From positions 1-64,000 of the IMG/VR virus record IMGVR_UViG_3300030329_005959: a stretch of DNA of 64,000 nt; one strand, written 5' to 3'. A model generated the notes under the pieces. That model was not told where the DNA came from. It saw only the letters and a list, made by a program, of their open reading frames with translations, and searched no databases. The translations under genes were made by a program, and so were the position numbers. Below are positions 1,757 through 50,585 of the stretch, piece by piece (positions within the stretch are counted from its first letter, which is position 1; each line of letters begins with the position of its first letter). The stretch comes from a virus.

Positions 1757-1784
1757 AGTATACCACAATCTCAGGAAACCGCAA
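1757..1784 (-). promoter_or_regulatory. Sigma70-type early promoter, leaderless (copy 4)
   Basis: TTGCGG-N16-TATACT-ACTAGC-ATG with extended -10 TG. Confidence 0.8.
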
Positions 1785-34328: not shown

Positions 34329-34568
34329 CTTACGGCCTGACTTGTCTTTTTCCAAAAGAATTCTCTGATTATTTATAATATATTTACAAAAACGTTTTAC
34401 ATAAAGAATAACGTTATCCTTTACTATTACGTTAAAGGATTAAGAATCGTTTTAGAACCGTTTCACGGTAATTGTAACGTGAAGTCTGATTCTGTCAACT
34501 AAAATTTTTCGGAAATTTCTTGATTGACGGTGGACACTGTGTTCCCCTAAGTGTAAATTCATTTGACC

Positions 34569-37186: not shown

Positions 37187-37202
37187 GTGTAAATTTAATA
37201 AT

Positions 37203-37619
37203 ATGAAATCTAGCTTTTCAGAAAAAATTTATACCTGCCTTGTAGCTAAGGTTATAAAATATAATGAAGAGCAAAAATCTCCTATTACGGTTGATCAATT
37301 AATCAGGGTATATAAAAGAGGAGAAAAAACCTCTAGAGTTTTCTTTTCTTTCGACAAAAGCACCGCGCAGTGGGCTATGGCCCGAGTAAATATGTTTTTG
37401 CGTCTTAGCTCAGACCGCCGCGTATGTGACTCTTACCGATTCCAAGACTTAGACATATCTAAAGGCATAGACCGAACCTATCATCAAGAGGAAGCGGAAC
37501 CTTTCTGGAAGTTTTCTGAGTTAGATTTTACCATGGCTCGTTCTGATTTGCTATTGGCTCATATCACCGACAAAGAGGCAGAAAATACGTTTTTCCCTCC
37601 CGTTCTTGAAGAAGATTAG
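37203..37619 (+). CDS. Hypothetical protein
   Basis: LIRVYKRG...QWAMARVNMFLR; ATG 10 nt after GTGTAA. Confidence 0.65.
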   Translation: MKSSFSEKIYTCLVAKVIKYNEEQKSPITVDQLIRVYKRGEKTSRVFFSFDKSTAQWAMARVNMFLRLSSDRRVCDSYRFQDLDISKGIDRTYHQEEAEPFWKFSELDFTMARSDLLLAHITDKEAENTFFPPVLEED

Positions 37620-37638
37620 TTTTCGGTTATAATCACCG

Positions 37639-39276
37639 ATGTCTAGTAAAAAGATCTCTGTGTGCGCTTTATGGCGCGATAGCGAATCCCATATTAATAG
37701 AACTTTAAATCAATTTGAAGATTTAGAAGAGTTGGATTTTGATTTTGAATATTATTTTTATGAAAATGACTCTAAAGATAATACTTCTACTTTGCTCCAA
37801 GCGTGGCTTAAGGACAGAGAGGGCATATTAAAAACTGAGACTTTGGGTGCTACAAAATTTGGCAGCACTCATGATCTGGAACGTATGCAGCTTCTGTCTG
37901 ACTGTAGAAACAAATGCAAAGATTTACTGTGTGATACTGAATCAGAATATACACTACTTGTTGATTCGGATATTATTTTTAATAAAGAAAATTTATTAGC
38001 CCATTTTGAGACCATCAAATCACTGGATGATTGTGTTATGTTAACTCCTAATGTGAGACAAAACATACCTGATCTTATCCAACATAATTCGCAAGATTCT
38101 TATTACGACATTTTACCTTTCTGGGACAGCGAAAAGAAAAATGCTTTAGGCTGGTCAAATTGCCCCTTCAGGAATGGCATCGACATTATGAATTGGAACC
38201 TTGGTAAACCCATTAAATGTTTTTCAGCCTTTGGTGGCTTCGCTTTAATAAAGACAGAGGTTCTTAAAAAAATCAATTGGTCTACAATAGGGGCTAGCGA
38301 GCATGTTAATTTTTGCCAAGAAATTAATGATTACGGCTCTATTTATATTGATCCCAAAAATAAAGTTTATGCCGAAGTAGAATTAGATTATTTACATTTA
38401 GAGGCTTTTAAAGAGACTGCTGTGGATAGGAGCAGGAAACCAATAACAATTGATCATGAAATTTTTACGAGTCAGAACTATAAAAAATTAAACTCTATAA
38501 AAAACCCAAAGGAGAAATCTAAGTATATTAAAGATTTGTTTTTGGAAAAAACAACCACCCAAACTGAAAAGCTTAAATTTCTTAAAAATTGTTTTCAAGG
38601 AGAAAAGGCTGTCCTAGTCTCCTGCGGCCCCTCTATTACTGAGCAAGATGAAGAAAAATTAAAATCCATCTTGGAAACCCGATTAGTTCTATCAATTAAA
38701 CAAAGCTTTGATCTTTTCTCCGAATATGTGGACATCCACTTCTATAATTGTGCTAACTATAAAAAATATGATTATTCTATACATAAGCCAATTGTATTTG
38801 AGGCTTCTACGGTTTATGGAAAGCTAGGGGAGTGTGATTTACTCTTTAAAATACCACAAGGAATGGATTATGATAACTCTTTATGTTCTCACAAAGACTT
38901 GGATTCTTGGACTTTAGAAAAGCAACCTTTTGAGAGGTGCTATGGCCCAGGAATCGAGTATGAAATAGTGTTATTTGCTGTAGAACATTTAGGCATATCC
39001 GAGTTAGTTACAATAGGTTGGGACAATAAACTTATAAACAACGGTGACGCTGATAGACAACATTTTTACGATAAAAACACAGGTTCGAACGAACAATGGA
39101 TTCAGGCGAACAAGGTTTCTAGCTCAGAGTTTTCTGTTAGCAAACTAAGCACAGAAGAAGAAATGACATCTGGCTTTATAATGGATTTTTATAATTGGCT
39201 TAAATCTAAAGGATGCGAGTTAAAAATAGTTTCTGAAATCAGCCCCGCTCCAAACGAAATTAAAACAACCTTATGA
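37639..39276 (+). CDS. Fusion: GT-A glycosyltransferase plus Maf/DUF115-like (sialyltransferase-fold) domain
   Basis: N-half: YENDSKDNT, LSDCRNK, LVDSD (DxD), SAFGGFAL, SEHVNFC. C-half: LKNCFQGEKAVLVSCGPSI, HLGISELVTIGWD, HFY. Confidence 0.7.
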   Translation: MSSKKISVCALWRDSESHINRTLNQFEDLEELDFDFEYYFYENDSKDNTSTLLQAWLKDREGILKTETLGATKFGSTHDLERMQLLSDCRNKCKDLLCDTESEYTLLVDSDIIFNKENLLAHFETIKSLDDCVMLTPNVRQNIPDLIQHNSQDSYYDILPFWDSEKKNALGWSNCPFRNGIDIMNWNLGKPIKCFSAFGGFALIKTEVLKKINWSTIGASEHVNFCQEINDYGSIYIDPKNKVYAEVELDYLHLEAFKETAVDRSRKPITIDHEIFTSQNYKKLNSIKNPKEKSKYIKDLFLEKTTTQTEKLKFLKNCFQGEKAVLVSCGPSITEQDEEKLKSILETRLVLSIKQSFDLFSEYVDIHFYNCANYKKYDYSIHKPIVFEASTVYGKLGECDLLFKIPQGMDYDNSLCSHKDLDSWTLEKQPFERCYGPGIEYEIVLFAVEHLGISELVTIGWDNKLINNGDADRQHFYDKNTGSNEQWIQANKVSSSEFSVSKLSTEEEMTSGFIMDFYNWLKSKGCELKIVSEISPAPNEIKTTL

Positions 39277-40295
39277 AGACTTTTTTCAAAAACAAAAAAG
39301 TGTTAGTAACTGGAGGAACAGGCTCTCTCGGACAAAAACTTGTAGAAAGATTGCAGTCTTATGATGCTTTACCTATAGTTTACAGCAGAGATGAAGGCAA
39401 ACAGGCTCTCAACTTTAAAAACAATAACAACTTAATCAAAATTATTGGGGATGTGAGAGATTTTGACAAACTTAATACATCTCTCAAAATTCACAAACCC
39501 GATTTTATTATACATGCTGCGGCCTTAAAGAGAATTGATGATATGGAGTTTTATCCTGATGAATGTGTCAAAACAAATGTATCAGGATCGGAAAACGTGG
39601 CGAGAGCCGCCCTGCAAAACGAGATTCAGAAATGTATATTAGTATCCACCGATAAAGCCTGTAAGCCAATTAATGTTTATGGGTCTTCTAAATTTTTAGC
39701 GGAAAGATTTTTTACTAACTATGATTACAATTCGGATACGACAATCTTTTCGTCAGTTAGATATGGAAATGTGATTGCCTCCCGAGGTTCTTTTATACCA
39801 CTATGGGTTGATGCCATACAAAAAAACGAGAGTATAAAAATTACATCTACTGAATGCACCAGATTTCTGTTCACCTTAAAAGATTCTGTAGATACAGTTT
39901 TAAGCTCACTCCAAAACAGTGTGGGAGGGGAGGTATTTGTTCCCCAGATCAACTCTTATACACTTCCTGTTTGCGTTAAAGCTCTTGAATATTTGTTTGA
40001 TAAAAAAGCCAAGACTCACATTATCGGACTGAGACCTGGAGAAAAGCTGCACGAAGATATGTTAGCTGAAACAGAACTTCCGTTTACTTATAAGGTCGAG
40101 GACCATGATTTTTTGCAATTATTTAATGAAGAGCCTACCGAGCGTGTTGATTTATTGCAAATAAGACCCCAATATACCAAAAAAACATATCAAACTTTTT
40201 CGAAATATGAGGGTCCGCACTTCAACTCAGAACTTTGGGTTAAGGAGGATGTCGAAGAATTATCACGATTGATTGAGTCAGGCTTAAAATGTTAA
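39273..40295 (+). CDS. pseB: UDP-GlcNAc 4,6-dehydratase (PseB/FlaA1 family)
   Basis: TGGTGSLG, YSRDEGKQ, HAAALK, STDKACKPINVYGSSK, VRYGNVIASRGS, GLRPGEKLHE. Confidence 0.88.
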   Translation: MKTFFKNKKVLVTGGTGSLGQKLVERLQSYDALPIVYSRDEGKQALNFKNNNNLIKIIGDVRDFDKLNTSLKIHKPDFIIHAAALKRIDDMEFYPDECVKTNVSGSENVARAALQNEIQKCILVSTDKACKPINVYGSSKFLAERFFTNYDYNSDTTIFSSVRYGNVIASRGSFIPLWVDAIQKNESIKITSTECTRFLFTLKDSVDTVLSSLQNSVGGEVFVPQINSYTLPVCVKALEYLFDKKAKTHIIGLRPGEKLHEDMLAETELPFTYKVEDHDFLQLFNEEPTERVDLLQIRPQYTKKTYQTFSKYEGPHFNSELWVKEDVEELSRLIESGLKC

Positions 40296-41545
40296 CATCA
40301 GAAGAAATATTATGGCAAAACGCCATTAGACTAATGCCGCGAGGGACGCAAACAATGAGTAAGTGTCCCGATCAGTTTGTAGAGGGGGTCTATCCCAAGT
40401 TCGCTAAAAAATCTAAAGGAGCTTATATCCAAGCTCTAGACAACAAGTGGTATTTGGACTACATGTGTGGGTTGGGTCCAATTATTTTAGGCTTTAATCA
40501 CAAGAAAACAAACAAGGCTATATCCAACCAACTCAAAAAAGGAATTATTCATTCTCTCCCTACGCTGTTGGAGCAAGAACTGGCTGCTTTAATATGTGAT
40601 AGTGTTCCGTGTGCGGAGCAGGTTAGATTTGCTAAAAATGGAACTGATGTAGATCTCGCTGCGGTGCGAATAGCCCGTTCATACACTGGTAGAGAACATA
40701 TTGTTAAGTGTGGATATCATGGATGGGGAGACTGGCACGGCATCACTCTTCGTCCCCACGGCATACCTAAGTGTCTAGAAGAATGTGTTTCTGAGTTTGA
40801 ATACAACAACCTCGCCAGTTTAGAGAGCGAACTTTCTAAGCGCCCTGTGGCGGGGGTAATAATGGAAGCTCAAGCTCTGACAAAACCACAAGAAGGCTTC
40901 TTGCAGGGGGTTAAGGACTTATGTAGGAAGCATGGAGCGGTGTTGATATTTGATGAAGTAGTCACAGGGTTTCGTTGGGCACTGGGGGGCGCTCAAGAAC
41001 ATTATGGAGTCACTCCTGACTTATGTTGTTTAGGGAAAGGAATGGCTAACGGAATGCCTCTTAGTGCCATCGCTGGAAAAAAAGAATATATGCAAGAACT
41101 TAATCATGCATTTTTTTCTATGACTTTTGGAGGAGAATGTTTATCTTTAGCCGCGTCTATAGAAACAATAAAAGAGCTTAAAAATAAAAACTATAAACAT
41201 ATTTGGGATCTAGGAAACAAGCTGGACAAAGGAATAAAAGAAGCCGCCAAAAAGCACGGGTTAGAAATTAATTTTAGTGGAAGCGCCCCTCGACACAATC
41301 TATCATTTAGCGACAAATACGATGATCCTCAAGGCATGAAAGCTCTTTTTTATCAAGAAATGTTCAGAGAGGGTGTTCTTTTCCCTAATGTCATTTATAT
41401 ACAATTTTCTCACACTTTGAAAGACATAGAAAAAACTATAACAGCAGCAGACAAATCTTTTTCTTTTCTGAAAAAAAATCTCAATAAAATAGATTTAGTT
41501 TTGAGAGGAAAAAGGAGCATTAACATTTTTAGAAAAAACACTTAA
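40289..41545 (+). CDS. Class III PLP aminotransferase (GSA-aminomutase-like)
   Basis: YLDYMCGLGPIILG, VRFAKNGTD, GYHGW, LIFDEVVTGFR, PDLCCLGKGMANGMP. Confidence 0.9.
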   Translation: MLTSEEILWQNAIRLMPRGTQTMSKCPDQFVEGVYPKFAKKSKGAYIQALDNKWYLDYMCGLGPIILGFNHKKTNKAISNQLKKGIIHSLPTLLEQELAALICDSVPCAEQVRFAKNGTDVDLAAVRIARSYTGREHIVKCGYHGWGDWHGITLRPHGIPKCLEECVSEFEYNNLASLESELSKRPVAGVIMEAQALTKPQEGFLQGVKDLCRKHGAVLIFDEVVTGFRWALGGAQEHYGVTPDLCCLGKGMANGMPLSAIAGKKEYMQELNHAFFSMTFGGECLSLAASIETIKELKNKNYKHIWDLGNKLDKGIKEAAKKHGLEINFSGSAPRHNLSFSDKYDDPQGMKALFYQEMFREGVLFPNVIYIQFSHTLKDIEKTITAADKSFSFLKKNLNKIDLVLRGKRSINIFRKNT

Positions 41546-42486
41546 TGAAAGAAAAAATTAAAGAAATAGAACAGGCTCTTGATGCCCTTTTGCTCGATCA
41601 AGAAAACAGAGTAGATAGGTTTGATGCAAATTACATTGATGACTTTCACTTTATTCTGAAAGAAACCCATTCAATTAAAAAAACCGAAGACGAACACAAC
41701 GACAGTTTCAACAAACTTAAAAAGCTCGTTGGTGGGAATTCAAAATCTGTTAAAGAACTAGGCGAAACTATAAAAACCATAGAAGGATTAAACATATCTA
41801 AATATAAGCCAAAGGAATCTGACTCATCTACTAAATCTGAGCATAAGTATGATCAAACTTCTAGTTGGGACTCAGCTAAAGACCTCAAAGTTAATGACCA
41901 AAATAAAGATAAACTTAATCAACTTCAGGTCGATTATTCGGTTCTTAGTCATGCTAATCAAAAAGTCGCCCCTTCAGTTTTTTGGAGGCGCGACGGTTTA
42001 ACTGATGAAAAAAACCAGCTATTTAAGGATTTTTGTGCTGGAAAAAAAGTCCTATGCATAGGGCCAAGATGGGCCGAAGAGGTTTCATATATATCTAACA
42101 CCTTTAAGTGTGAAGCTCTTGGGTTAGATCTTTTTTCGAATAACAAAGATCTAGTAAAAGTCGGTGATATGCACGATATGCCTTTTGAGGATAACACCTT
42201 CGATGTAGTATATCAAAAGAACACTTTTAACAAATCTTACGACATTAGAAAATGTTTAGACGAGTGCGTGAGGGTTTTAGTCAATGGTGGCGTTATAATT
42301 TCTGACGAACTATTAGGATATAATATTGGAGTCAATGAAATTGCCCGAACGAGTATAAACAGGAATTCTTGGTATACCTCCTATCTTGATAAAACAGTAG
42401 ATGAGATTTTGTGTGACAAAGAAGTGTCCATAAACGCAAGCTGGGTGGATCTTGTTGGACTATATGCTGTTAAAATAAAAAAATAG
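41545..42486 (+). CDS. Class I SAM-dependent methyltransferase with N-terminal extension
   Basis: KVLCIGPR, GLDL, GDMHDMPFEDNTFDVV, ECVRVLVNGG. Confidence 0.85.
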   Translation: MKEKIKEIEQALDALLLDQENRVDRFDANYIDDFHFILKETHSIKKTEDEHNDSFNKLKKLVGGNSKSVKELGETIKTIEGLNISKYKPKESDSSTKSEHKYDQTSSWDSAKDLKVNDQNKDKLNQLQVDYSVLSHANQKVAPSVFWRRDGLTDEKNQLFKDFCAGKKVLCIGPRWAEEVSYISNTFKCEALGLDLFSNNKDLVKVGDMHDMPFEDNTFDVVYQKNTFNKSYDIRKCLDECVRVLVNGGVIISDELLGYNIGVNEIARTSINRNSWYTSYLDKTVDEILCDKEVSINASWVDLVGLYAVKIKK

Positions 42487-42488
42487 CT

Positions 42489-43178
42489 ATGAAGTCTATA
42501 GAAAACACTCTTTTTTTTATTCAAGCGAGGACTCAATCGACAAGAGTGCCTAACAAAATGTTAAGGCCGTTTGCTGATTCGAACTTATTTGAAATAGCTG
42601 TTAAAAAACTACTCAAGTCAGAGGTCATACCTAAAGATAATTTTTATTTATCTATAATGGATGAGGAGTTGATTAAAATAGCAGAAAAGTATAATGTAAA
42701 CTATTTTACGAGAAGCGAAGAGTCTACTCAAGAACCAGTTACTTTACCGAAAGTGTTTGAGTGGCACGACAAGCTACCGTTTACACACTATGTGAATGTA
42801 AACGCTTGCAATCCACTTCTTAAAATAGAAACCATAGACAGTTTTATCCAAAAATTTTTACAAACCAAATCAAGGGGACTGTTTGGTGTCTTTGAGAAAA
42901 AAACTTTTCTTTTTGGGTGTAATCACTCAATGTTAAATGAGTTTTATGGAGGCGAAAGACATTTATCCACACTGGAAACCAAGTTTGTGGAGACCTGTTA
43001 TGAGGCAGCTCATTCTTTGTATGCTGGTTGCGTAGAAGATATCAAAAAGCACATTTATATGGGCTCATTTACTAGCGAAAATGATCCTGAGTTCTTTATT
43101 CTTGATGAAAAAGAGTGTCTAGACATTGATTGGCCTTGGCAATTTGAAATGGCGGAAAAACTTTATTCAAATTCATGA
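42489..43178 (+). CDS. CMP-nonulosonate synthetase (NeuA/PseF-like cytidylyltransferase)
   Basis: IQARTQSTRVPNKMLRPF, NACNPLL, CLDIDWPWQF. Confidence 0.85.
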   Translation: MKSIENTLFFIQARTQSTRVPNKMLRPFADSNLFEIAVKKLLKSEVIPKDNFYLSIMDEELIKIAEKYNVNYFTRSEESTQEPVTLPKVFEWHDKLPFTHYVNVNACNPLLKIETIDSFIQKFLQTKSRGLFGVFEKKTFLFGCNHSMLNEFYGGERHLSTLETKFVETCYEAAHSLYAGCVEDIKKHIYMGSFTSENDPEFFILDEKECLDIDWPWQFEMAEKLYSNS

Positions 43179-43984
43179 AAGCAGTAATAATTGGTGGAGG
43201 CTCCATTGGTCAGCGACATGCGGGGAACTTAAAAGGTTTGGGTGTTAATACTAGAATTGTAGATATTGATGAAATAGAAACCATAGACTCTATCTTAAAT
43301 AATGGCTTTGATTTTGGTTTGGTTTGCTCACCGAATCTATATCATATAGAACATTGCACAAAATTAGCGGAATATAACATTCCAACCTTCTGTGAAAAAC
43401 CTTTTTATTCTGACGTTGACGGAGTGGCTTCTCTTTTAAAAACTGTTGAAGAAAAAAAATTAATCACAATGGTAGCGGCGAACTTAAGATTCGCGGACGA
43501 GGTGAAATCTATTGATTCTACAGCTAGCTATATTAATGTCCACTTTGGCTATGACCTAAAAAAATGGAGACCAGATTCGGACCACTTGCTTTCTTATAGT
43601 GCCAATAAAGCTTTAGGTGGAGGCATTCTCCTAGACGCTATACACGAACTAGATTACCTTTATTTTAAATTTGGTAAAATACAAGACATTTTTTATAACA
43701 AAAGCAAGTTAACAAATATCACAAATGATACCGAAGATTTGGTTGTCGGGCGCATTTATTTCGAAAGCGGAACTATAGCTGATTTTTCTCTTAACTATCT
43801 CTCGGAGGATTATCAAAGATATTACGATATTTTAGAGGACGGCGTTTTAAAAAGAAAAAACATAAATATCAGCAACCAGATGTATATAGACGAAATGACT
43901 TATTTTATTGATTGCGTGGTATCAAATACCCAAGGTATGAATAGTTTTAATGAGGCAAACACACTGTTAACTACAATTATTTAA
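43175..43984 (+). CDS. Gfo/Idh/MocA NAD-dependent oxidoreductase
   Basis: IIGGGSIGQRH, CSPNLYH, FCEKP, GGGILLDAIHELDY. Confidence 0.9.
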   Translation: MKAVIIGGGSIGQRHAGNLKGLGVNTRIVDIDEIETIDSILNNGFDFGLVCSPNLYHIEHCTKLAEYNIPTFCEKPFYSDVDGVASLLKTVEEKKLITMVAANLRFADEVKSIDSTASYINVHFGYDLKKWRPDSDHLLSYSANKALGGGILLDAIHELDYLYFKFGKIQDIFYNKSKLTNITNDTEDLVVGRIYFESGTIADFSLNYLSEDYQRYYDILEDGVLKRKNINISNQMYIDEMTYFIDCVVSNTQGMNSFNEANTLLTTII

Positions 43985-44809
43985 ATGGAAAATTGGGTCG
44001 AAAATAAAAAAGTGCATGATGCAGAATGGGGTATGCTCTATGCTTATTGTATGGCTAATGCTGCCAAATATACCAACATAAAAGAAGAGTGGGCGAATTT
44101 ATTCAGTTTTGAAATGGGGCACCCCCTTACCTTGAGATATATTTCAGAAGGTAAGCATAAGATTAACGGGAAGGAAGGATATTTTAAAAGCAAAAATAAA
44201 CATCTGCAAAACAGAATTGATAAATATATCACCCCAACGACTGATGCTATACTAGACTTAGGCGCTGGCTGGGGAAGGCACAGCATTCAGTTGGCCTTTA
44301 ATAATCCCGATTACAATATAATCTCGGGCGAACTATCAGATACAGGGAAGGCTATCCTAGAATATTTTATCGAAAAATATGATTTGTCTATCACAATCGT
44401 TGATTTTAATTGGCATGACCATAAATCTATAATTGATTTTTTGTCTCAGCAGTTTAGCTACGACGAAGGCAAAACTTGGTCTAACTTTAAAGAGATAATT
44501 ATTTTTACTAGCAATGCTATAGAGCAGATACCCAACATTAAGTTGGAATTCTTTACAGATTTATTGAGTTTGCCTATTAAAAAAATTAGCGCTATTCACA
44601 TCGAGCCTGTGAAGTTTCAATATGATAATGCTGATTTTCCCTTCTCCGAGGAAAATGCTCATTACAACCGAAACCTTAAAACGGTATTAGATAGTTTAGT
44701 ATCTTTGGGTCTTATTAAGATCAAAGATGTGATACCGCTCTATTGGGGGCACAGTTTAAATATAGCATCACAAAACAACACTCTAATAGAATGGGTAAAA
44801 CTTTTATAA
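43985..44809 (+). CDS. SAM-dependent methyltransferase-like protein
   Basis: ILDLGAGWGR motif I; FTSNAIEQIP, HIEP. Confidence 0.75.
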   Translation: MENWVENKKVHDAEWGMLYAYCMANAAKYTNIKEEWANLFSFEMGHPLTLRYISEGKHKINGKEGYFKSKNKHLQNRIDKYITPTTDAILDLGAGWGRHSIQLAFNNPDYNIISGELSDTGKAILEYFIEKYDLSITIVDFNWHDHKSIIDFLSQQFSYDEGKTWSNFKEIIIFTSNAIEQIPNIKLEFFTDLLSLPIKKISAIHIEPVKFQYDNADFPFSEENAHYNRNLKTVLDSLVSLGLIKIKDVIPLYWGHSLNIASQNNTLIEWVKLL

Positions 44810-45786
44810 TAGCTGAAGCAGGGGCAAATCACAATAGAAATTTTGACCAAGCGCTTTCTTTAATAGATGTAGCAAAAGAATCAGGGGCAACTGCGGTAAA
44901 GTTCCAAACTTATTCTTCAGAAACCCTCTATGCAGCAAGCACCCCAGATTTTGCGGGTTACAAAAACATAAGCAAACTAATAAAAGATATAGAGCTTCCC
45001 AGATCTTGGCAAAAAGATCTGAAGGATTACTGTGATGAGAGTGGGATTGAGTTTATGTCTACGCCTTTTGACGAGAAAGCTGTAGAAGAGCTTGTTGATT
45101 TAGGGGTTAAAAGACTTAAAATCTCAGGCTTTGAATCTACAGATCCTCGCTTTGTAAAATTAGTGGCGTCTACGGGTTTGCCAATTATAATGAGCATTGG
45201 AATAGGGTTTGACCTTAAATACGTAGAGTCTTTTTTAGAAATTTTTTCAGCGTATAACAATCACCTAACATTACTACACTGTAACAACGCTTACCCCACC
45301 CCCATGCAAGATGCAAACCTGCGGCAGATGGGGGTTTTATCGACGTATAAAGGTGTTGACGCAGTAGGTTTTTCTGACCATACAATTTCGACCCTAACCC
45401 CTTCTTGGGCGGTTGCTTTAGGAGCAACTGTTATTGAAAAACATTTTACTATAAGCCGCAAACTACGAGGACCAGACCACCCTTTTGCTCTTGAGCCTCT
45501 TGAACTTAAAGAAATGGTGGACAACATCCACTTGGCTGAACTAGCAATTAAAAACAAAGGTTCTGGCTTTACAAAATCTGAGAGGCCGTTTTCTAAAGCA
45601 ATGAGATCGGTGGTCTCTCTAGGGTCTATAAAAAAAGGAGAGGTTTTAACAGTTACTAACACTACTACCAAAAGGCCGTTTTTGGAGAATTCGGTTCCTG
45701 CATTTGATTATTTTAAGGTATTAGGTAAAATAGTTACAGAAGATATAGAAGACGACCAAATCTTAAACAAAAATCAAATCAAATGA
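44791..45786 (+). CDS. Nonulosonic acid synthase (NeuB/PseI family) with C-terminal SAF domain
   Basis: FIIAEAGANHN, AVKFQTY, FMSTPFD, LLHCNNAYPT, GFSDHT, IEKHFT, GPDHPFALEP, MRSVV...KRP. Confidence 0.93.
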   Translation: MGKTFIIAEAGANHNRNFDQALSLIDVAKESGATAVKFQTYSSETLYAASTPDFAGYKNISKLIKDIELPRSWQKDLKDYCDESGIEFMSTPFDEKAVEELVDLGVKRLKISGFESTDPRFVKLVASTGLPIIMSIGIGFDLKYVESFLEIFSAYNNHLTLLHCNNAYPTPMQDANLRQMGVLSTYKGVDAVGFSDHTISTLTPSWAVALGATVIEKHFTISRKLRGPDHPFALEPLELKEMVDNIHLAELAIKNKGSGFTKSERPFSKAMRSVVSLGSIKKGEVLTVTNTTTKRPFLENSVPAFDYFKVLGKIVTEDIEDDQILNKNQIK

Positions 45787-46610
45787 GCGACTTACAAAAA
45801 AGAATTGTAGAAGAATTAAAAGAAGACGGGATTTCTATCACTCATGTAGACGAATTATTTGGAGATACCTCTCGAAACTATTTTTCTAATTCTTTGTTGT
45901 ATTTTAATGAATTTCTATCCTCTCCACACATTAAAGAAAGATGTGATAGGATATCTTCAGGAAATCCCATCCAAGACAAGAATAAATGGTTTGAGGTAAC
46001 GGTTTATGAGTATTTGAACAGGGGCCTGAGTCTGGATGACGGAGATGTAATAAGAATGAACTTGTCTCCCGAAATTCTTTCTATCGCGGAAGCTTTTTAC
46101 GGGACTCTCCCTAAAGTTAGGAACATTCTTACTTGGGTTCACCCACAAAACCCCTCTACATCAGAAATTGGATCGCAGCGTTGGCACCGAGACAAAGAAG
46201 ATGAATCCATTTTAAAAGTTTTTATTTTATTTTCTGAAGTTGGCCCTAAAAACGGTCCCACGCAATTTATCAAGAAGTCGCAAGCGGGTGGAAAATATCA
46301 AGATATTTCATCTTTAGGAGGCGACGGATATGGGGGGTTAAACTATGAAATTCCAGAGGGAGAGCTTGTCTCTTGTGAGGGGACGGTAGGGACAATAATT
46401 TTTATGAACAACAATGGGGTTCATAAAGGAGGGTTGGTAAAAGACGGTATCAGAAGCCTAACTCACGCTTGTTTTCTAAAGCCTACAGCTCCCTTTCTCA
46501 ATAATGGAGTGTTGCCCTGTTTTGAATATGATTCCCAAGTTAATCTTTTAGACAGAGAGGGTGAGTCCTATCAAAATTTAAGCGATACCCAAAAATTTGT
46601 TCTCTCATGA
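45783..46610 (+). CDS. 2-oxoglutarate/Fe(II) dioxygenase (PhyH-like)
   Basis: SQRWHRD (HxD), NGPTQFI, GVHKGG (distal His), R-S/L. Confidence 0.8.
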   Translation: MSDLQKRIVEELKEDGISITHVDELFGDTSRNYFSNSLLYFNEFLSSPHIKERCDRISSGNPIQDKNKWFEVTVYEYLNRGLSLDDGDVIRMNLSPEILSIAEAFYGTLPKVRNILTWVHPQNPSTSEIGSQRWHRDKEDESILKVFILFSEVGPKNGPTQFIKKSQAGGKYQDISSLGGDGYGGLNYEIPEGELVSCEGTVGTIIFMNNNGVHKGGLVKDGIRSLTHACFLKPTAPFLNNGVLPCFEYDSQVNLLDREGESYQNLSDTQKFVLS

Positions 46611-47269
46611 CCGCTTTGGTAATATCGCAAGATAGACCTTGGACTCGCCAACTAATTAATAGTCTGGATAACGAGGAACATGAGATTTTTTATTCTTCTT
46701 TAATATCTCAGGAGTTAATTGAAAATATCGGCCCTGATTGGATATTTTTCTTTCACTGGTCCGAAATTGTTCCTAAAACTATATACAAAAATTATAAGTG
46801 TTGCGTAATCCACACTGGCAATTTACCTAAGGCGAGAGGAGGAAGTCCTCTGCAAAATCAAATATTAGAGGGCGTGACCGACACCCAAGTAAATATTATT
46901 GAAATGTCAGGTGAGATAGATGCTGGCGGGATATATTGCTCTGCTCCTATTTCTTTACAAGGGAGTATTACTGATATATGGCTTTCAATAGCTGATGTAA
47001 CCTCTAATTTAATAAACTTTTGTATGTCTGCAAACCCGAAAGCGGCTCCACAAAGGGGGAAGTCCCAAACATATAAACGCATTAAAAATAATAGTGTTAA
47101 CTTTAATATTGAAAAGCCACTTTCCTTCGTTTATGATCAGATTAGAATGGTGGATGATGATTTTTATCCTAAATGCCATTTGGACATCAATGGTTTTAGG
47201 TTAGAGTTTAGCAGGGCAAAACTGAAAACAGATAAAATTTTAGCCGATGTTACAATTACCAAAAAATAG
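46607..47269 (+). CDS. Formyltransferase (sugar N-formyltransferase type)
   Basis: IHTGNLPKARGGSPLQNQI, IDAGGI, YDQIRMVD...YP. Confidence 0.85.
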   Translation: MTALVISQDRPWTRQLINSLDNEEHEIFYSSLISQELIENIGPDWIFFFHWSEIVPKTIYKNYKCCVIHTGNLPKARGGSPLQNQILEGVTDTQVNIIEMSGEIDAGGIYCSAPISLQGSITDIWLSIADVTSNLINFCMSANPKAAPQRGKSQTYKRIKNNSVNFNIEKPLSFVYDQIRMVDDDFYPKCHLDINGFRLEFSRAKLKTDKILADVTITKK

Positions 47270-47912
47270 CGACATATTAATTTTAGCTGCTCATCCCGAT
47301 GATGAAACATTAGGGTGTGGCGCTACTGCGGCTAAACTCTCAGAGGAAGGTCACAATATCCACTTAATGACATTCACTGACGGGGTTGATGCCAGAGACG
47401 AAAAAGGAAAGGAAAACAGAAACAACAGGCTGGGCCGTATCTCCGAGATACTAGGAATTAATTCGTTTAATCATGGAGATTTTCCCGATAACAGCATGGA
47501 CGTTGTTCCCTTGTTAAAACTTTGCAAATACATAGAAAATCACTGTCCTTTTGCACCTGATTTAATTTTTACCCACCACCCCGATTGTCTTAATATAGAT
47601 CATGAAATGGTTTACCGAGCCACTTTAACCGCCTTTAGGCCGCAGTTTGGGTTAAGACAAACAATTTTGTCTTATTTTGTCCCGTCTTCAACCGATTACA
47701 ATCCTCAGGCTAACTTTAACGGGAATGTCTATGTTGACATCAAAGGCTATGTGGATAAAAAGCTAAAAGCGTTATCGGTTTATGACGAAGAGATGAGAGA
47801 ACACCCTCACAGCAGAAGCTACACTAATGTAAAAAATTTGTCTTCTACATGGGGAAGCGAAGTCGGCTTAGAGTCTGCTGAGAAATTTCAACTAATAAGA
47901 TCTGTTTCTTAA
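47247..47912 (+). CDS. PIG-L/LmbE de-N-acetylase
   Basis: AAHPDDETLGCG, IFTHH...NIDH, HPHSRS, AEKF. Confidence 0.9.
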   Translation: MLQLPKNSDILILAAHPDDETLGCGATAAKLSEEGHNIHLMTFTDGVDARDEKGKENRNNRLGRISEILGINSFNHGDFPDNSMDVVPLLKLCKYIENHCPFAPDLIFTHHPDCLNIDHEMVYRATLTAFRPQFGLRQTILSYFVPSSTDYNPQANFNGNVYVDIKGYVDKKLKALSVYDEEMREHPHSRSYTNVKNLSSTWGSEVGLESAEKFQLIRSVS

Positions 47913-47913
47913 A

Positions 47914-48444
47914 ATGATAGAAGGCAAGAAAGTAAATTTAACTAAAGTTGACAGAGAGAATATCGAACAACTTAGGGAATGGAGAAACAACCCGTTGTTG
48001 AGAAAATATTTTAGAGAACACCGAGAGATCAACAAAGATAATCAATCTTGTTGGTATGAAAGCAAGGTGTTGGGAGATCCTAATCAATATAACTTTGAAA
48101 TAAGGGCCAACAAAAACTCTGAACTAATCGGGCATTGCGGCCTTTATTATATTAATTGGATTAGCAGGACTGCTGAGTTTGGCATTTATATTGGAGATAG
48201 AGCCTATAGAAATGGAGGTTATGGTTCGGACACCCTTAGAACTTTAATTGGTTATGGATTTAAAGATTTAAATTTAAATAGAATTTGGTGCGAAGTTTAC
48301 GACAACAATAAATCCATTGAAGTATATAAGCATATTGGCTTTAAATACGAGGGCACATTAAGACAAAACTATTACAACGAAGGCCGCTATTGGGATGCTC
48401 ATGTTCTCGGTATGCTGAAAAGTGAATATGAATCAATCTCTTAA
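47914..48444 (+). CDS. GNAT N-acetyltransferase (PseH/RimJ-like)
   Basis: LREWRNNP, AEFGIYIG, YRNGGYGS, NKSIEVYKHIGFKYEG. Confidence 0.85.
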   Translation: MIEGKKVNLTKVDRENIEQLREWRNNPLLRKYFREHREINKDNQSCWYESKVLGDPNQYNFEIRANKNSELIGHCGLYYINWISRTAEFGIYIGDRAYRNGGYGSDTLRTLIGYGFKDLNLNRIWCEVYDNNKSIEVYKHIGFKYEGTLRQNYYNEGRYWDAHVLGMLKSEYESIS

Positions 48445-49195
48445 AGACAGCAAAGTATTAATTGTAGGGACTTCCAGTTCGGTAGCCCAATACGATAAAA
48501 AATTCCTCCAAGAAAAACGAGAAAACGGATATAAGATATTATCTTATTCTGGCAACTCTCTTATTTATTTATACGACATTGGATTTAAGCCTGATTTTTT
48601 CATTTTTTTCGACCCTTTTGCCTATACTATTGGAATAGGAAATATGGGGGAGCGATGCAAAGATTGGCTAAAGGAAACGACATATATAGGGTATGAAAAC
48701 AGCTCCTTTGAGTCTTTGTTGGCTACTAATAAATTCTTAAACGGAAGCGAAAGTTTTGGATTCACTGATTTTTTAAGAAACGACTCTTTGGTTAACCTCT
48801 ATAAAGACAATCCTCCTTCAGAAATCTTTAAAGAGTGTTTGTGTGAAAATCCCACAACCGTAAATTTTGATCAGATAGAAAATTTAAACTTGTCAGACAG
48901 GCTTTACATGATAAGAAACTATGGTAATGAATTAGACAAATTTACCTATTATCTTCTGCCAGTAATTTTTAATTTCTTCAAAAACCTTTCGACTTTAGAG
49001 TGTTTGGGTTTTGGGACATTTGGGTTCGACCGATACAGGGGAACATCAGGGTCTTATTCCGAATATGTAAGAGCATATGATCAAATCTTACCTCATTTGA
49101 ATAATGTCAAAATAAACCAAAATGTTGACATTAAATTAGAGGATGATAGTTATTTCAAAAAAGTCGAAACTCTCTTTTCTAAAGATATTTCATGA
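48428..49195 (+). CDS. Possible sialyltransferase-fold (GT42/GT29/Maf-like) protein
   Basis: KVLIVGTSSS, KPDFFIFFDP and LECLGF echo the GNGPS / PD / GFD pattern of that fold. Weak match. Confidence 0.4.
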   Translation: MNQSLKDSKVLIVGTSSSVAQYDKKFLQEKRENGYKILSYSGNSLIYLYDIGFKPDFFIFFDPFAYTIGIGNMGERCKDWLKETTYIGYENSSFESLLATNKFLNGSESFGFTDFLRNDSLVNLYKDNPPSEIFKECLCENPTTVNFDQIENLNLSDRLYMIRNYGNELDKFTYYLLPVIFNFFKNLSTLECLGFGTFGFDRYRGTSGSYSEYVRAYDQILPHLNNVKINQNVDIKLEDDSYFKKVETLFSKDIS

Positions 49196-50238
49196 AAAAA
49201 ATAATTATAACAGGGGTGACAGGTCAAGATGGTAGCCATATGGCAGACTATTTACTCCAGAATACAGAGCACACCGTCATTGGTGGAGTAAGAAGGTTAA
49301 GTGTTGAAAACCACAAGAACATCAAGCATTTAGAAAAAAACCCTCGTTTTTATCTTATTGATTTAGATGTAACGGATGCTCATAACACTGATAATGTAAT
49401 TTCTAGGGAAAAACCCGATTATTTTATTAATTTTGCTGCGAATTCTTTTGTGGGCAGCAGTTGGGATATGCCTGTAAATCACATGCAGACTAATTGCATG
49501 GCGGTTCTCTACCAGTTAGAAGCGCTTCGAAAGCATACCCCTCACTGCCGTTATTACAACGCAGGTAGCTCTGAGGAGTTTGGGAACGTTGTGACGACTC
49601 CGCAAGCAGAAGATCATCCCTTGCGCCCCAGAAGCCCATATGGAGCCTCTAAATGCGCTGCCCGACATTTGGTAAAAGTTTACCGAGACTCTTACAAACT
49701 TTACGCGGTTCAGGGTTGGTTATTTAATCACGAAGGTGTTCGCAGAGGGGAAGAATTTGTTACTAGGAAGATCACAAAAAATGTCGCCAAAATTTTAGCA
49801 CAATATGAAACGGGCAAAGTTGTGGTCCCGATGCAATTAGGCAATTTAGACGCGAAGAGGGACTGGAGCGATGCGGAAGATTTTATTAGAGGCGTCTGGT
49901 TGATGTTAAATCAAGATAGAGAAAACCCGAAGGACTACGTTCTTTCCTCTAATGAAACACACACTATAAGAGAATTTATTGAGGAAGCTTTTAATTTTGT
50001 AGGTTTCCACAGAAACGCTTGTGAATGGAAAGGGGAAGGTCTTGAAGAAAAATACATGCACGGTCGAGATTGTTTTGTGGAAATTAATTCAGATTTTTAT
50101 AGGCCAGCAGAGGTTGACTTGCTTTTGGGCGACTCAACAAAAGCGCGTGATGAGCTTGGGTGGAAACCAAAAACCACATTTATCCAGCTTATCAAAAAAA
50201 TGGTTGACAAGGATGTGGCGTCAGTTATTACTGGGTAG
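49192..50238 (+). CDS. gmd: GDP-mannose 4,6-dehydratase
   Basis: ITGVTGQDGS, AANSFV, SSEEFG, PRSPYGASK, LFNHE, FVTRKIT, LGNLDAKRDW, RPAEVDLLLGD. Confidence 0.95.
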   Translation: MKKIIITGVTGQDGSHMADYLLQNTEHTVIGGVRRLSVENHKNIKHLEKNPRFYLIDLDVTDAHNTDNVISREKPDYFINFAANSFVGSSWDMPVNHMQTNCMAVLYQLEALRKHTPHCRYYNAGSSEEFGNVVTTPQAEDHPLRPRSPYGASKCAARHLVKVYRDSYKLYAVQGWLFNHEGVRRGEEFVTRKITKNVAKILAQYETGKVVVPMQLGNLDAKRDWSDAEDFIRGVWLMLNQDRENPKDYVLSSNETHTIREFIEEAFNFVGFHRNACEWKGEGLEEKYMHGRDCFVEINSDFYRPAEVDLLLGDSTKARDELGWKPKTTFIQLIKKMVDKDVASVITG

Positions 50239-50585
50239 TGCCGAAGTCTAAAGGCCCGAATAAACGGGATATCATTTTTCGTCTTATAGAAGTTCCCGAC
50301 AAAGGGAGGCGACCATTTTTCGCGAGGGAAATGAAGTTGCTTAACGATCTTTGTGATCGCTATTCTTTGGAGTTTATGAATATTGTAAACTTTGGGAAAA
50401 AGTTTGATTCTCTGGCTTATCTTGTTAGCCCGAAACTTAAGAACTCTCTTGATGAAAAGTTTAGAGCCTTCAATTTTAAGGTTGATTTATCCAAGTATGA
50501 AACCTATGATATAGGGGAAAAAATAGGTGACGATGCGGTCATTTCACAAACCCCCAAAACAGTAAAAGATTTTTTAGATGAGTAA
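50238..50585 (+). CDS. Hypothetical protein
   Basis: 115-aa ORF coupled between gmd and recA. Confidence 0.7.
   Translation: MPKSKGPNKRDIIFRLIEVPDKGRRPFFAREMKLLNDLCDRYSLEFMNIVNFGKKFDSLAYLVSPKLKNSLDEKFRAFNFKVDLSKYETYDIGEKIGDDAVISQTPKTVKDFLDE

What the first reader, a model, noticed from the sequence alone, without database searches (positions are those of the whole stretch)
37639..50238. Phage-encoded pathway to build, tailor, activate and attach a nonulosonic (pseudaminic-like) acid
Seen: 14 co-oriented, overlapping or abutting genes between the nrd locus and recA. They encode a PseB-type dehydratase, an aminotransferase, a PseH-like GNAT, a NeuB/PseI synthase, a NeuA/PseF CMP-transferase, two methyltransferases, a 2OG-Fe oxygenase, a formyltransferase, a PIG-L deacetylase, an oxidoreductase, two candidate sialyltransferase-fold proteins and Gmd. 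Known: PseB-C-H-G-I-F converts UDP-GlcNAc to CMP-pseudaminic acid, which Maf proteins attach to flagellin; phages usually carry only scattered sugar genes. Inference: this phage makes its own heavily modified 9-carbon sugar and installs it on virion proteins (glycan shield or receptor mimic) or on the host surface (superinfection exclusion or grazing evasion).
Basis: partly seen in the sequence, partly recalled or inferred. Interest (0 to 1): 0.9.

Follow-up and report, generated by a model that had tools for sequence, protein, structure and literature searches.

The report
Phage-borne sialic-acid-like sugar glycosylation operon
An uncultured 104-kb marine phage carries a 14-gene operon that looks able to make, decorate, activate and attach a bacterial sialic-acid-like nine-carbon sugar; an unusual enzyme cassette stands where two textbook enzymes are missing, and nothing has been tested at the bench.

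Summary
Observation confirmed.

The record is a phage (IMG/VR, 104,265 bp, CheckV 94%). Contigs from several marine metagenome runs cross both junctions. Four related phages carry a cluster at the same site, so it is not a chimera.

The core is a PseB-like dehydratase, a NeuB-family synthase, a CMP-transferase and a PseH-like GNAT. Both "sialyltransferase-fold" proteins are Maf-like (5mu5: Z 11.1 and 9.8); g1 also has an N-terminal GT-A domain.

The pathway is not canonical. The whole genome has no PseC (DegT), PseG or NeuC.

In 46 related viral loci, DegT (34) and a class-III aminotransferase + MocA + own-type CMP-transferase cassette (12) never co-occur. They switched at least 5 times on the NeuB tree.

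The closest described relatives are Aeromonas group I flagellin glycosylation islands. These hold the same extra enzyme classes but keep PseC.

The sugar's stereochemistry and the acceptor are unknown; a virion protein is my guess, the host surface the rival.

This scan has noted phage nonulosonate + Maf systems before (47 notes, at least 44 genomes). I found no paper describing one.

Verdict: new variant of a known kind.

The parts
37639..39276 (+). g1, 545 aa: two-domain glycosyltransferase. N-terminal GT-A domain (aa 1-277) plus C-terminal Maf-like (MptE-like, PF01973) domain (aa 302-545).
   Evidence: AF2 model pLDDT 89. VIA-align: aa 1-250 vs Mnn9 3zf8 Z 19.1, COLGALT1 8zgc Z 18.5; aa 302-545 vs Maf 5mu5_A Z 11.1, rmsd 4.6, 190 aligned. 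PF01973 hits 38557-38715 directly, E 3.5e-4, below cut-off. 21 of 53 relatives hit PF01973, best 2.4e-8.
39273..40295 (+). g2, 340 aa: PseB/FnlA/CapE-type (inverting) UDP-GlcNAc 4,6-dehydratase.
   Evidence: Polysacc_synt_2 1.2e-77. TIGR03589 PseB 262.8 bits, best model but below its 407.75 cut-off. Best solved relative is H. pylori PseB 2gn4, 1.4e-60, ahead of FnlA, CapE and PglF.
40289..41545 (+). g3, 418 aa: class III (glutamate-1-semialdehyde-aminomutase-like) PLP aminotransferase, standing where PseC is expected.
   Evidence: Aminotran_3 1.1e-46. NF004856 332 bits, below its 486 cut-off. A G-K pair (K250) is invariant in 10 viral homologues; that it is the PLP lysine is my assumption. Solved relatives include sugar C-6' aminotransferases. 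Never co-occurs with DegT in 46 viral loci.
41545..42486 (+). g4, 313 aa: class I SAM methyltransferase with an N-terminal extension of about 100 aa.
   Evidence: Methyltransf_11 8.7e-12 at aa 189-252. Atlas features 0.96 and structure TM 0.55-0.59 to Methyltransf_11 clusters.
42489..43178 (+). g5, 229 aa: CMP-sugar synthetase (CTP_transf_3). Subtype that travels with g3 and g6.
   Evidence: PF02348 1.2e-13. Weak PseF 38.5 bits vs a 205.7 cut-off. 58-73% identical to the gene in class-III-type loci but 36-50% in DegT-type loci.
43175..43984 (+). g6, 269 aa: GFO/IDH/MocA NAD(P) oxidoreductase.
   Evidence: PF01408 3.8e-10 and PF22725 4.7e-08. Nearest solved chains are the sialic-acid oxidoreductases RgNanOx 6z3b (8.6e-7) and YjhC 6o15 (5.2e-5), both weak. 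Present in 12 of 12 class-III-type loci and 0 of 34 DegT-type loci.
43985..44809 (+). g7, 274 aa: class I SAM methyltransferase, divergent.
   Evidence: No Pfam hit above cut-off. Atlas features 0.98 and structure TM 0.75 to class I SAM methyltransferase clusters.
44743..45786 (+). g8, 347 aa (331 aa if it starts at ATG 44791): NeuB-family nonulosonate synthase with a SAF domain.
   Evidence: PF03102 6.3e-69 and SAF. TIGR03569 281.7 bits vs TIGR03586 PseI 247.3 bits, both below cut-off. PDB: SpsE 1.5e-48, PseI 1.5e-45, NeuB 1.5e-41; the SDHT and EKHFT motifs, which hold the metal-binding histidines in NeuB as I recall, are conserved.
45783..46610 (+). g9, 275 aa: PhyH-type Fe(II)/2-oxoglutarate oxygenase (tailoring).
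   Evidence: PF05721 3.7e-06, 27.8 bits, above the 22 cut-off. Homologues in 14 related loci.
46607..47269 (+). g10, 220 aa: short formyltransferase (Fmt-like).
   Evidence: Formyl_trans_C_2 1.1e-15 and Formyl_trans_N 7.1e-06. Always next to the PIG-L gene in the 8 loci that have it.
47247..47912 (+). g11, 221 aa: PIG-L family de-N-acetylase.
   Evidence: PF02585 2.6e-21. Homologues in 12 related loci.
47914..48444 (+). g12, 176 aa: PseH-like GNAT N-acetyltransferase.
   Evidence: Acetyltransf_3 2.5e-20. TIGR03585 PseH 82.5 bits is the best model, just below its 93.1 cut-off.
48422..49195 (+). g13, 257 aa (ATG at 48428 is possible): stand-alone 'mini-Maf', sialyltransferase-like fold.
   Evidence: AF2 pLDDT 95. 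VIA-align top hit is Maf 5mu5_A, Z 9.8, rmsd 3.8, 180 aligned, followed by ST3Gal 2wnf 7.4, MptE 8sd5 7.2, ST8SiaIII, ST6GALNAC2, ST6Gal1 and Cst 2p56. Foldseek top hit ST6GALNAC2+CMP, E 8.9e-4. 13 of 48 relatives hit PF01973.
49192..50238 (+). g14, 348 aa: GDP-mannose 4,6-dehydratase (Gmd).
   Evidence: PF16363 6.4e-104. TIGR01472 329.6 bits, below its 415 cut-off. Kept at the 3' end of the island in related phages L010, L014, L023, L025 and L029.

Best explanation
The 14 genes form one operon of soluble, cytoplasmic enzymes in a lytic-type marine phage.

Proposed course (inferred from family chemistry). [quoted passage not shown] The class III aminotransferase g3 aminates it, doing the job PseC does in 34 related phage clusters. 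The PseH-like GNAT g12 N-acylates it. The NeuB-family synthase g8 condenses the freed hexose with PEP to a 5,7-diamino-3,5,7,9-tetradeoxy-nonulosonic acid, probably of the pseudaminic series. g5 activates that acid with CTP.

Tailoring (inferred). PIG-L g11 plus formyltransferase g10 exchange an N-acetyl for an N-formyl group. Two methyltransferases (g4, g7) and a 2OG oxygenase (g9) add further groups. MocA g6 oxidises or epimerises a hydroxyl, possibly on the nonulosonate itself.

Transfer (inferred). Two Maf-like transferases (the g1 C-domain and g13) put the CMP-sugar on Ser/Thr of a protein. The GT-A domain of g1 may add a hexose derived from the Gmd (g14) product.

Shown here: gene content, predicted folds, conservation, cassette exchange and physical continuity. 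Inferred: every chemical step, the stereochemistry and the acceptor. My guess for the acceptor is a phage structural protein, because all the enzymes are cytoplasmic and no export machinery is present.
For: - Family and fold assignments exist for all 14 genes.
- The core order dehydratase - aminotransferase - NeuB - N-acyl slot - CMP-transferase recurs in 47 viral loci.
- The primary NeuB copies form one clade, SH-aLRT 99.
- DegT (34 loci) and g3-type aminotransferase (12 loci) never co-occur. The only locus with neither is truncated.
- At least 5 independent switches on the NeuB tree all go the opposite way.
- The window's NeuB groups (96) with DegT-type loci of the same phage lineage. One synthase lineage therefore works with either aminotransferase.
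- The slot after NeuB holds a GNAT, a formyltransferase, or formyltransferase + PIG-L. This fits alternative N-acyl groups.
- None of the 14 proteins has a convincing membrane helix. The one 19-residue window above 1.6 lies in NeuB, a soluble enzyme family. No Wzx/Wzy-type partner was seen among the Pfam assignments.
- Phage identity: TerL, nrdAB, UvsX, DnaB, primase and DnaE; CheckV 94%.
- L010, L014, L023 and L029 share nrdA, UvsX and DnaB at 65-78% identity and hold a cluster at the same site.
- Contigs of runs X1, X3 and X7 cross both junctions.
- One relative each of g3 and of the g1 C-domain carries a Tara Oceans name from the 0.1-0.22 um and <0.22 um fractions.
- Bacterial flagellin islands with the same extra enzyme classes exist.
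Against: - No UDP-sugar hydrolase (PseG) or hydrolysing 2-epimerase (NeuC/LegG) is found anywhere in the genome. One obligatory step has no enzyme.
- In bacteria, the distant homologues of g3 (31-35% identity) sit beside a CMP-transferase but mostly together with DegT and a PseG-like gene. The ancestral role of the class III enzyme is therefore probably accessory, not PseC-like.
- The sign test on the switches gives only p = 0.06.
- The role of MocA is unexplained if g3 simply replaces PseC.
- The synthase is closer to the NeuB/SpsE models than to PseI.
- All equivalog models score below their cut-offs.
- No clearly Ser/Thr-rich acceptor stands out; the maximum is 22% S+T, in a 1637-aa protein.
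- The cluster lies in the replication module, not among virion genes.
- There is no expression or chemical evidence.
Confidence: 0.6

Rival explanations
1. Same sugar, different target. The Maf-like enzymes glycosylate a host protein (flagellin, pilin or S-layer protein) or otherwise remodel the host surface during infection, for example to block superinfection or grazing. They do not glycosylate the virion.
For: All characterised Maf enzymes modify flagellin before export (PMC4065374, PMC7874193). The operon runs on into the replication genes, so it is probably expressed with them (my inference from gene order). A second block with GT1 and GT9-like genes lies at 64.8-69.1 kb; as I recall, the GT9 family acts on the LPS core.
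Against: g13 and the g1 C-domain align only to the central domain of the 632-residue Maf chain, residues 256-505. The phage has no flagellin gene. No flippase, polymerase or membrane protein is in the cluster. The host is unknown.
Confidence: 0.25
2. g3, g5 and g6 are a tailoring cassette that works on the finished or CMP-activated nonulosonate, as in Aeromonas group I islands: oxidise a hydroxyl, then transaminate it. On this reading the phage pathway is incomplete and relies on host PseC and PseG, or it makes a product aminated at another position.
For: In bacterial clusters the CMP-transferase lies directly upstream of the class III aminotransferase: L090 MocA-CMPt-AT3-PseG-like, also L114, L117 and L121. 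These usually also have DegT. The Aeromonas layout is pseB-pseC-reductase-pseF-class III AT-pseG. The nearest solved relatives of g6 oxidise C4 of a sialic acid. PseG is missing anyway.
Against: An accessory cassette should sometimes co-occur with DegT in phages, but it never does in 46 loci and 5 of 5 independent switches. Minimal class-III loci (L006, L016) would then lack any C4 aminotransferase. Carrying about 10 pathway genes while depending on the host for two is unparsimonious.
Confidence: 0.3
3. The product is not pseudaminic acid. It is another 5,7-diamino nonulosonate stereoisomer (legionaminic-like, an epimer made through MocA, or a new one).
For: g8 scores 281.7 bits on NeuB_NnaB vs 247.3 on PseI, and its best solved relative is SpsE. 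g8 shares a DH.FAL motif with SpsE but not with PseI or NeuB. The class-III cassette brings its own CMP-transferase subtype and a redox enzyme.
Against: The dehydratase is of the inverting PseB/FnlA/CapE type, not LegB or PglF. The acetyltransferase is PseH-like. No 2-epimerase of the NeuC/LegG kind is present; as I recall, the Leg and Neu routes need one.
Confidence: 0.35
4. The sugar is attached to phage DNA (base hypermodification). This would explain the position between nucleotide-metabolism and recombination genes.
For: Position next to nrdAB and UvsX. Virus-encoded transferases that glycosylate DNA are known (Pyle 2024, cited in PMC12619734).
Against: No thymidylate-synthase-type hydroxymethylase is found in the genome. 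The transferases have Maf-like and GT-A folds that match protein and glycan transferases. I know of no nonulosonate on DNA.
Confidence: 0.03
5. The island is cellular DNA joined to a phage contig by misassembly.
For: None found, beyond the genes being of bacterial type.
Against: A single 37.9-kb contig in X3 spans 34000-52000 with 0 differences. X1 and X7 (X7 is not flagged as a possible source) have contigs over 36790-39568 / 36790-37995 and 49216-50952 / 49225-50952 at even depth. Four related phages have the cluster at the same site. GC 0.35-0.39 matches the neighbouring sequence.
Confidence: 0.02

Closest known systems
Aeromonas group I polar flagellin glycosylation islands (pseB-pseC-[reductase]-pseF-[class III aminotransferase]-pseG-...-pseI with maf-1; PMC7874193)
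   Same: A PseB-like dehydratase, a CMP-transferase next to a class III aminotransferase, an oxidoreductase, a deacetylase, methyltransferases, a PseH-like GNAT, a NeuB-family synthase and a Maf-type transferase as the attaching enzyme. Subgroups ID and IE also lack a PseG orthologue.
   Different: Aeromonas keeps PseC beside the class III enzyme; the phage has none. The redox partner there is an aldo/keto reductase, here a MocA enzyme. The phage adds a formyltransferase, a PhyH oxygenase, Gmd and a GT-A fusion. The phage Maf-like proteins match only the central domain of the solved Maf chain. The carrier is a virus without flagellin. The function of the extra enzymes is unknown in Aeromonas too.
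Canonical CMP-pseudaminic acid pathway PseB/C/H/G/I/F of Helicobacter pylori and Campylobacter jejuni (established knowledge; NCBIfam TIGR03584-TIGR03590)
   Same: Best models or best solved relatives for g2 (PseB) and g12 (PseH). NeuB-family synthase and CTP_transf_3 activator. Same overall logic from UDP-GlcNAc, PEP and CTP.
   Different: PseC and PseG are absent. g8 and g5 are not PseI/PseF equivalogs by score. Five to six extra tailoring enzymes.
Maf flagellin nonulosonate transferases (Magnetospirillum magneticum Maf, PDB 5mu5; Aeromonas caviae Maf1, PMC4065374)
   Same: The central MptE-like / sialyltransferase-like domain: Z 11.1 for g1 aa 302-545 and Z 9.8 for g13. Relatives hit PF01973.
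   Different: Only residues 256-505 of the 632-residue chain are matched. g1 is fused to a GT-A domain instead. The two phage domains are not detectably related to each other by BLAST or hhalign. Pfam scores are below cut-off.
Virion O-glycosylation of mycobacteriophages by phage-encoded glycosyltransferases (Freeman et al. 2023, PMC10527164, seen here as a citation only)
   Same: Precedent that a phage can glycosylate its own capsid and tail proteins in the cytoplasm with its own transferases.
   Different: As I recall, those phages use host nucleotide sugars and ordinary hexoses. No sugar biosynthesis pathway, no nonulosonate and no Maf-type enzyme is described there.
Autonomous glycosylation of giant viruses (Megavirinae make bacterial-type amino sugars for their fibrils; PMC10117803, PMC9614988)
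   Same: A virus-encoded pathway starting with a UDP-GlcNAc 4,6-dehydratase/5-epimerase (Megavirus Mg534, 4tqg, is a solved relative of g2), plus virus-encoded transferases.
   Different: Eukaryotic viruses. Hexosamine products, not 9-carbon acids, in the papers found. No Maf.
Dehydrogenase + aminotransferase couples that aminate a sugar hydroxyl, e.g. KdnB/KdnA for Kdo8N in Shewanella (from memory, not checked here); RgNanOx/YjhC as MocA enzymes acting on sialic acid C4 (PMC7535918)
   Same: g6 + g3 have the composition of such a couple. The nearest solved relatives of g6 are RgNanOx and YjhC.
   Different: Similarity is weak (E 1e-6 to 5e-5, about 135 residues). No substrate is known for g6 or g3.

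Membership tests
CMP-pseudaminic acid pathway (PseBCHGIF) | PseB: inverting UDP-GlcNAc 4,6-dehydratase/5-epimerase | tested here: inconclusive
   g2: the PseB model is the best hit but scores 262.8 bits against a 407.75 cut-off. The best solved relative is H. pylori PseB, 1.4e-60, only slightly ahead of FnlA and CapE.
CMP-pseudaminic acid pathway (PseBCHGIF) | PseC: DegT/DnrJ-family C4 aminotransferase | tested here: not met
   No PF01041 match in the whole 104-kb genome at E <= 1. A class III aminotransferase sits in its place.
CMP-pseudaminic acid pathway (PseBCHGIF) | PseH: GNAT N-acetyltransferase | tested here: inconclusive
   g12: TIGR03585 is the best model, 82.5 bits against a 93.1 cut-off.
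CMP-pseudaminic acid pathway (PseBCHGIF) | PseG: UDP-sugar hydrolase (GT28-like) | tested here: not met
   No TIGR03590 match in the genome at E <= 1. No GT-B protein is in the cluster. Bacterial counterparts L090 and L114 do have a Glyco_tran_28_C gene after the class III aminotransferase.
CMP-pseudaminic acid pathway (PseBCHGIF) | PseI: pseudaminic acid synthase | tested here: inconclusive
   g8 is a NeuB-family member (232.5 bits against a 22.1 cut-off). It scores 247.3 on PseI (cut-off 340.25) and 281.7 on NeuB_NnaB (cut-off 399.65). No reference phylogeny could be built.
CMP-pseudaminic acid pathway (PseBCHGIF) | PseF: CMP-pseudaminic acid synthetase | tested here: inconclusive
   g5: CTP_transf_3 51.8 bits, above the 22.6 cut-off. 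PseF model only 38.5 bits against 205.7. No solved relative by sequence.
Legionaminic / neuraminic acid pathways | Hydrolysing UDP/GDP-sugar 2-epimerase (NeuC/LegG, Epimerase_2) | tested here: not met
   No PF02350 match in the genome at E <= 1. The LegB model is only a weak secondary hit for g2 and g14.
Maf (motility-associated factor) nonulosonate transferases | Central MptE-like (PF01973) catalytic domain | tested here: inconclusive
   Fold met: 5mu5_A Z 11.1 (g1 aa 302-545) and Z 9.8 (g13, top hit, followed by six sialyltransferase or MptE chains). Pfam is below cut-off on g1 (16.4 bits against 34.6) and absent on g13 itself. 21 of 53 and 13 of 48 relatives hit it.
Maf (motility-associated factor) nonulosonate transferases | Flanking N- and C-terminal domains of full-length Maf (about 630 aa) and a flagellin acceptor | tested here: not met
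   g13 is 257 aa. The g1 C-domain and g13 align only to chain residues 256-505. No flagellin gene is in the phage.
Aeromonas group I-type flagellin glycosylation island | CMP-transferase adjacent to a class III aminotransferase, plus an oxidoreductase, within a pse cluster served by a Maf transferase | tested here: met
   g3-g4-g5-g6. The cassette is conserved in 12 viral loci. Bacterial L090, L114, L117 and L121 show the same adjacency. The published layout is in PMC7874193.
Aeromonas group I-type flagellin glycosylation island | pseC present beside the class III aminotransferase; chromosomal location next to flagellar genes | tested here: not met
   No DegT in the genome. The cluster lies between phage nrdA and UvsX.

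The most novel reading that the evidence does not exclude
Marine phages run a PseC- and PseG-independent route to a nonulosonic acid. In this route the class III aminotransferase / MocA / dedicated CMP-transferase cassette makes a new stereoisomer or an extra-aminated 9-carbon sugar. Domain-stripped 'mini-Maf' enzymes, one fused to a GT-A domain, attach it to the phage's own virion proteins. That would be the first sialic-acid-like coat on a bacteriophage.
Probability: 0.3. Interest if true: 0.85.

Novelty: new variant of a known kind. Interest (0 to 1): 0.7.

Why it matters
- Nonulosonic acids are known as decorations of bacterial and archaeal surfaces. They matter for motility, immune evasion and phage recognition.
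- A phage that makes, tailors and transfers one itself would extend virus-encoded glycosylation to 9-carbon acids. So far it is known from giant viruses and, with ordinary sugars, from mycobacteriophages.
- It would also give a function to a gene set that is abundant in ocean metagenomes. The class III aminotransferase alone has thousands of close relatives.
- The DegT / class III exchange is a natural experiment. It makes the unknown role of the class III aminotransferase + oxidoreductase pair of Aeromonas-type flagellin islands directly testable.
- The mini-Maf proteins are small, soluble candidates for the minimal catalytic unit of a poorly understood transferase family.

Tried and rejected
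- Megablast of the cluster against 50,697 phage records found no match.
- tblastn of NeuB against the same records found only 3 weak hits, none of them a cultured phage. No isolate is available as a model.
- A single-sequence search of genome contigs with g3 found nothing. The alignment search found only relatives at 44% identity or less (mostly 30-38%), chiefly Thermoleophilia genes without any nonulosonate context.
- Assignment of NeuB to a Pse, Leg or Neu clade could not be done. No reference sequences of known function could be brought in. Model scores and PDB scores are nearly equidistant. The large NeuB phylogeny paper does not mention viruses.
- hhalign of the g13 family against the g1 family gave probability 0.1, and BLAST found no relation. 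The two Maf-like domains are linked only through fold and through PF01973 hits of their relatives.
- Foldseek of the full g1 model listed only GT-A-type (N-domain) matches among the rows shown. The C-domain match came from VIA-align.
- Search for an obvious Ser/Thr-rich acceptor: the maximum is 22% S+T, not decisive.
- An association between Gmd and the GT-A domain of g1 is seen only in 3 loci of one lineage. That is too few to argue from.
- No PseG candidate was identified. An MBL-fold gene between PseB and PseC in 8 relatives is a lead only.
- Host identification failed.
- Literature searches for a phage-encoded nonulosonate pathway with a Maf transferase found nothing. The only trace is 'pseI' in an abbreviation list of a marine phage review. 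This is absence in the held library, not proof of absence.

Full report
**1. What is there**

Between 37639 and 50238 the + strand carries 14 ORFs. They overlap by 1-23 nt, abut, or are 1-2 nt apart.
- The one 67-nt overlap disappears if the NeuB gene starts at ATG 44791 instead of TTG 44743.
- Upstream lie nrdB, nrdA and a 147-aa ORF. Downstream lie a 115-aa ORF, a UvsX/RecA-like recombinase, an HNH endonuclease, DnaB, primase, an exonuclease and a DnaE-type polymerase. TerL is at 6878-8743.
- The window is the first 64 kb of an IMG/VR virus record of 104,265 bp, rated 94% complete.
- GC in the cluster (0.35-0.39) matches its neighbours.

**2. Gene by gene**

| Gene | Assignment |
|---|---|
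| g1 | two-domain transferase (see section 3) |
| g2 | PseB/FnlA/CapE-type 4,6-dehydratase; best solved relative H. pylori PseB |
| g3 | class III, glutamate-semialdehyde-aminomutase-like aminotransferase |
| g4, g7 | class I SAM methyltransferases |
| g5 | CTP_transf_3 cytidylyltransferase |
| g6 | short GFO/IDH/MocA oxidoreductase |
| g8 | NeuB-family synthase with SAF domain; SDHT and EKHFT motifs conserved |
| g9 | PhyH-type 2OG-Fe oxygenase |
| g10 | short formyltransferase |
| g11 | PIG-L deacetylase |
| g12 | PseH-like GNAT |
| g13 | see section 3 |
| g14 | Gmd |

- All equivalog models score below their curated cut-offs. These are divergent members, not textbook orthologues.
- None of the 14 proteins has a convincing membrane helix.

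**3. The two transferases**

g1:
- Its relatives fall into three sets: full-length proteins, about 675-aa proteins that share only its C-terminal half, and about 310-aa CAP59/GT2-type proteins that share only its N-terminal half.
- 21 of 53 relatives hit PF01973, the Maf / MptE-like family.
- The AF2 model (pLDDT 89) has a GT-A domain (Mnn9 Z 19.1, COLGALT1 Z 18.5). Its C-terminal domain matches the Maf glycosyltransferase of Magnetospirillum (5mu5_A, Z 11.1).
- PF01973 also touches g1 directly, but below cut-off.

g13:
- It had no family hit itself, but 13 of 48 relatives hit PF01973.
- Its model (pLDDT 95) has Maf 5mu5_A as top match (Z 9.8). Mammalian and Campylobacter sialyltransferases and MptE follow.

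Both align only to the central domain of the 632-residue Maf chain.

**4. It is phage DNA, not a chimera**
- 47 other viral contigs hold a NeuB 50-67% identical to g8.
- Four of them (L010, L014, L023, L029) share nrdA, UvsX and DnaB at 65-78% identity. Each has a sugar cluster ending in Gmd just upstream of the x115-UvsX genes.
- In marine metagenome runs, one 37.9-kb contig covers 34000-52000 without a difference.
- Separate runs, one of them not flagged as a possible source, have contigs across both junctions at even depth.
- One relative each of g3 and of the g1 C-domain carries a Tara Oceans name from the 0.1-0.22 um and <0.22 um fractions.

**5. The pathway is modular and non-canonical**

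The shared order is dehydratase - aminotransferase - NeuB - N-acyl slot - CMP-transferase.
- The N-acyl slot holds a GNAT, a formyltransferase, or a formyltransferase + PIG-L pair. This suggests N-acetyl versus N-formyl variants and an acetyl-to-formyl exchange.
- The aminotransferase is DegT (PseC-type) in 34 loci and the class III enzyme in 12. It is never both. The only locus with neither is cut off.
- The class III gene always comes with the MocA gene and with its own CMP-transferase subtype: 58-73% identical to g5, against 36-50% in DegT loci.
- The primary NeuB copies form one clade. On it the two types interleave, with at least 5 switches.
- The window's NeuB sits with DegT-type relatives of its own phage lineage.
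- All 5 independent pairs go the opposite way. Five pairs give only p = 0.06.
- The whole genome has no DegT, no PseG and no NeuC-type epimerase.

**6. Bacterial counterparts**
- Distant g3 homologues (31-35% identity) occur in nonulosonate clusters of Dehalococcoidia, Omnitrophota, Rhodospirillales, Acidobacteria, Planctomycetes and CPR bacteria.
- The CMP-transferase lies directly upstream of them, and a PseG-like gene often lies downstream.
- There they mostly co-occur with DegT.
- This matches the published Aeromonas group I flagellin glycosylation islands: pseB-pseC-reductase-pseF-class III aminotransferase-pseG-...-pseI, with deacetylases, methyltransferases and Maf-1. Two subgroups lack PseG (PMC7874193).
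- The function of the reductase / class III pair is not known there either.
- The nearest solved relatives of g6 are RgNanOx and YjhC, which oxidise C4 of a sialic acid. The match is weak.

**7. How it most likely works**

I read the operon as a phage version of an Aeromonas-type pseudaminic-acid glycosylation island.
- It is trimmed of pseC and pseG and enriched in tailoring enzymes.
- Its product is handed to mini-Maf transferases that act on protein in the cytoplasm.
- The exclusivity with DegT argues that in phages the class III enzyme has taken over the C4 amination (about 60:40 against a pure tailoring role).
- The role of MocA, the missing UDP-release step, the stereochemistry and the acceptor are open.
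- Favouring a virion protein as acceptor: all enzymes are soluble, no export machinery is present, and the Maf-like proteins cover only the catalytic core of Maf.
- Not favouring it: the cluster lies in the replication module, and no strongly Ser/Thr-rich acceptor stands out.
- DNA glycosylation is unlikely, because the genome has no hydroxymethylase.

**8. Novelty**
- I found no paper on a phage-encoded nonulosonate pathway with a Maf-type transferase.
- The cultured phage records hold almost no NeuB homologue.
- This scan has already noted such systems 47 times in at least 44 genomes. It has also noted the class III / MocA layout in other phage genomes. The kind is therefore recurrent.
- New to this case are the quantified DegT / class III exchange, the GT-A-Maf fusion and the link to Aeromonas group I islands.

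Noticed in passing
L136:810-5065 (+), genome 64810-69065, just beyond the window's end: A second glycosylation block. It holds a 630-aa GT1 (GT-B) protein with a DUF4214 domain, a 380-aa GT9-like protein, a 258-aa unknown and a weak GNAT. It converges on a 326-aa ORF and a 1637-aa ORF on the minus strand (genome 70661-75574); the 1637-aa ORF has 22% Ser+Thr, the highest among the large ORFs. It may extend the glycan or mark the acceptor.
   Followed up: partly
L010, L023, L029, L026, L033, L041 and others (21 loci): Many DegT-type relatives carry a second, short NeuB paralogue (about 277 aa) that forms its own clade. It usually has a conserved 255-330-aa unknown ('u263') nearby and sometimes a second CMP-transferase. 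This looks like a second ulosonic-acid pathway in the same phage.
   Followed up: partly
L010 and 7 other loci: A 443-aa metallo-beta-lactamase-fold protein lies between the PseB-like and DegT genes in L010 and occurs in 7 further loci. It is a candidate non-homologous replacement for the missing UDP-sugar hydrolase PseG.
   Followed up: no
window 55912-59826: The DnaE-type polymerase appears split. A 245-aa ORF matches the N-terminal part of phrog_405 (profile positions 61-267) and the 851-aa ORF matches positions 325-1044. A 216-aa ORF lies between them.
   Followed up: no
window 51687-52094: An HNH / homing endonuclease gene lies between the UvsX-like recombinase and DnaB. It is conserved at that place in related phages (cluster c38).
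   Followed up: no
window 1-2000: GC is 0.51 in the first 2 kb against 0.35-0.45 in the rest of the window. This could be a genome end or foreign segment.
   Followed up: no
window 21622-28710: A giant 2362-aa ORF on the + strand lies among ORFs without PHROG matches. It may be a structural or injected protein.
   Followed up: no
L090:4879-6521: The bacterial (Dehalococcoidaceae) counterpart cluster holds a PylC-like ATP-grasp ligase and a HAD hydrolase between the PseG-like gene and the formyltransferase / PIG-L pair. This hints at aminoacyl decoration of the sugar.
   Followed up: no
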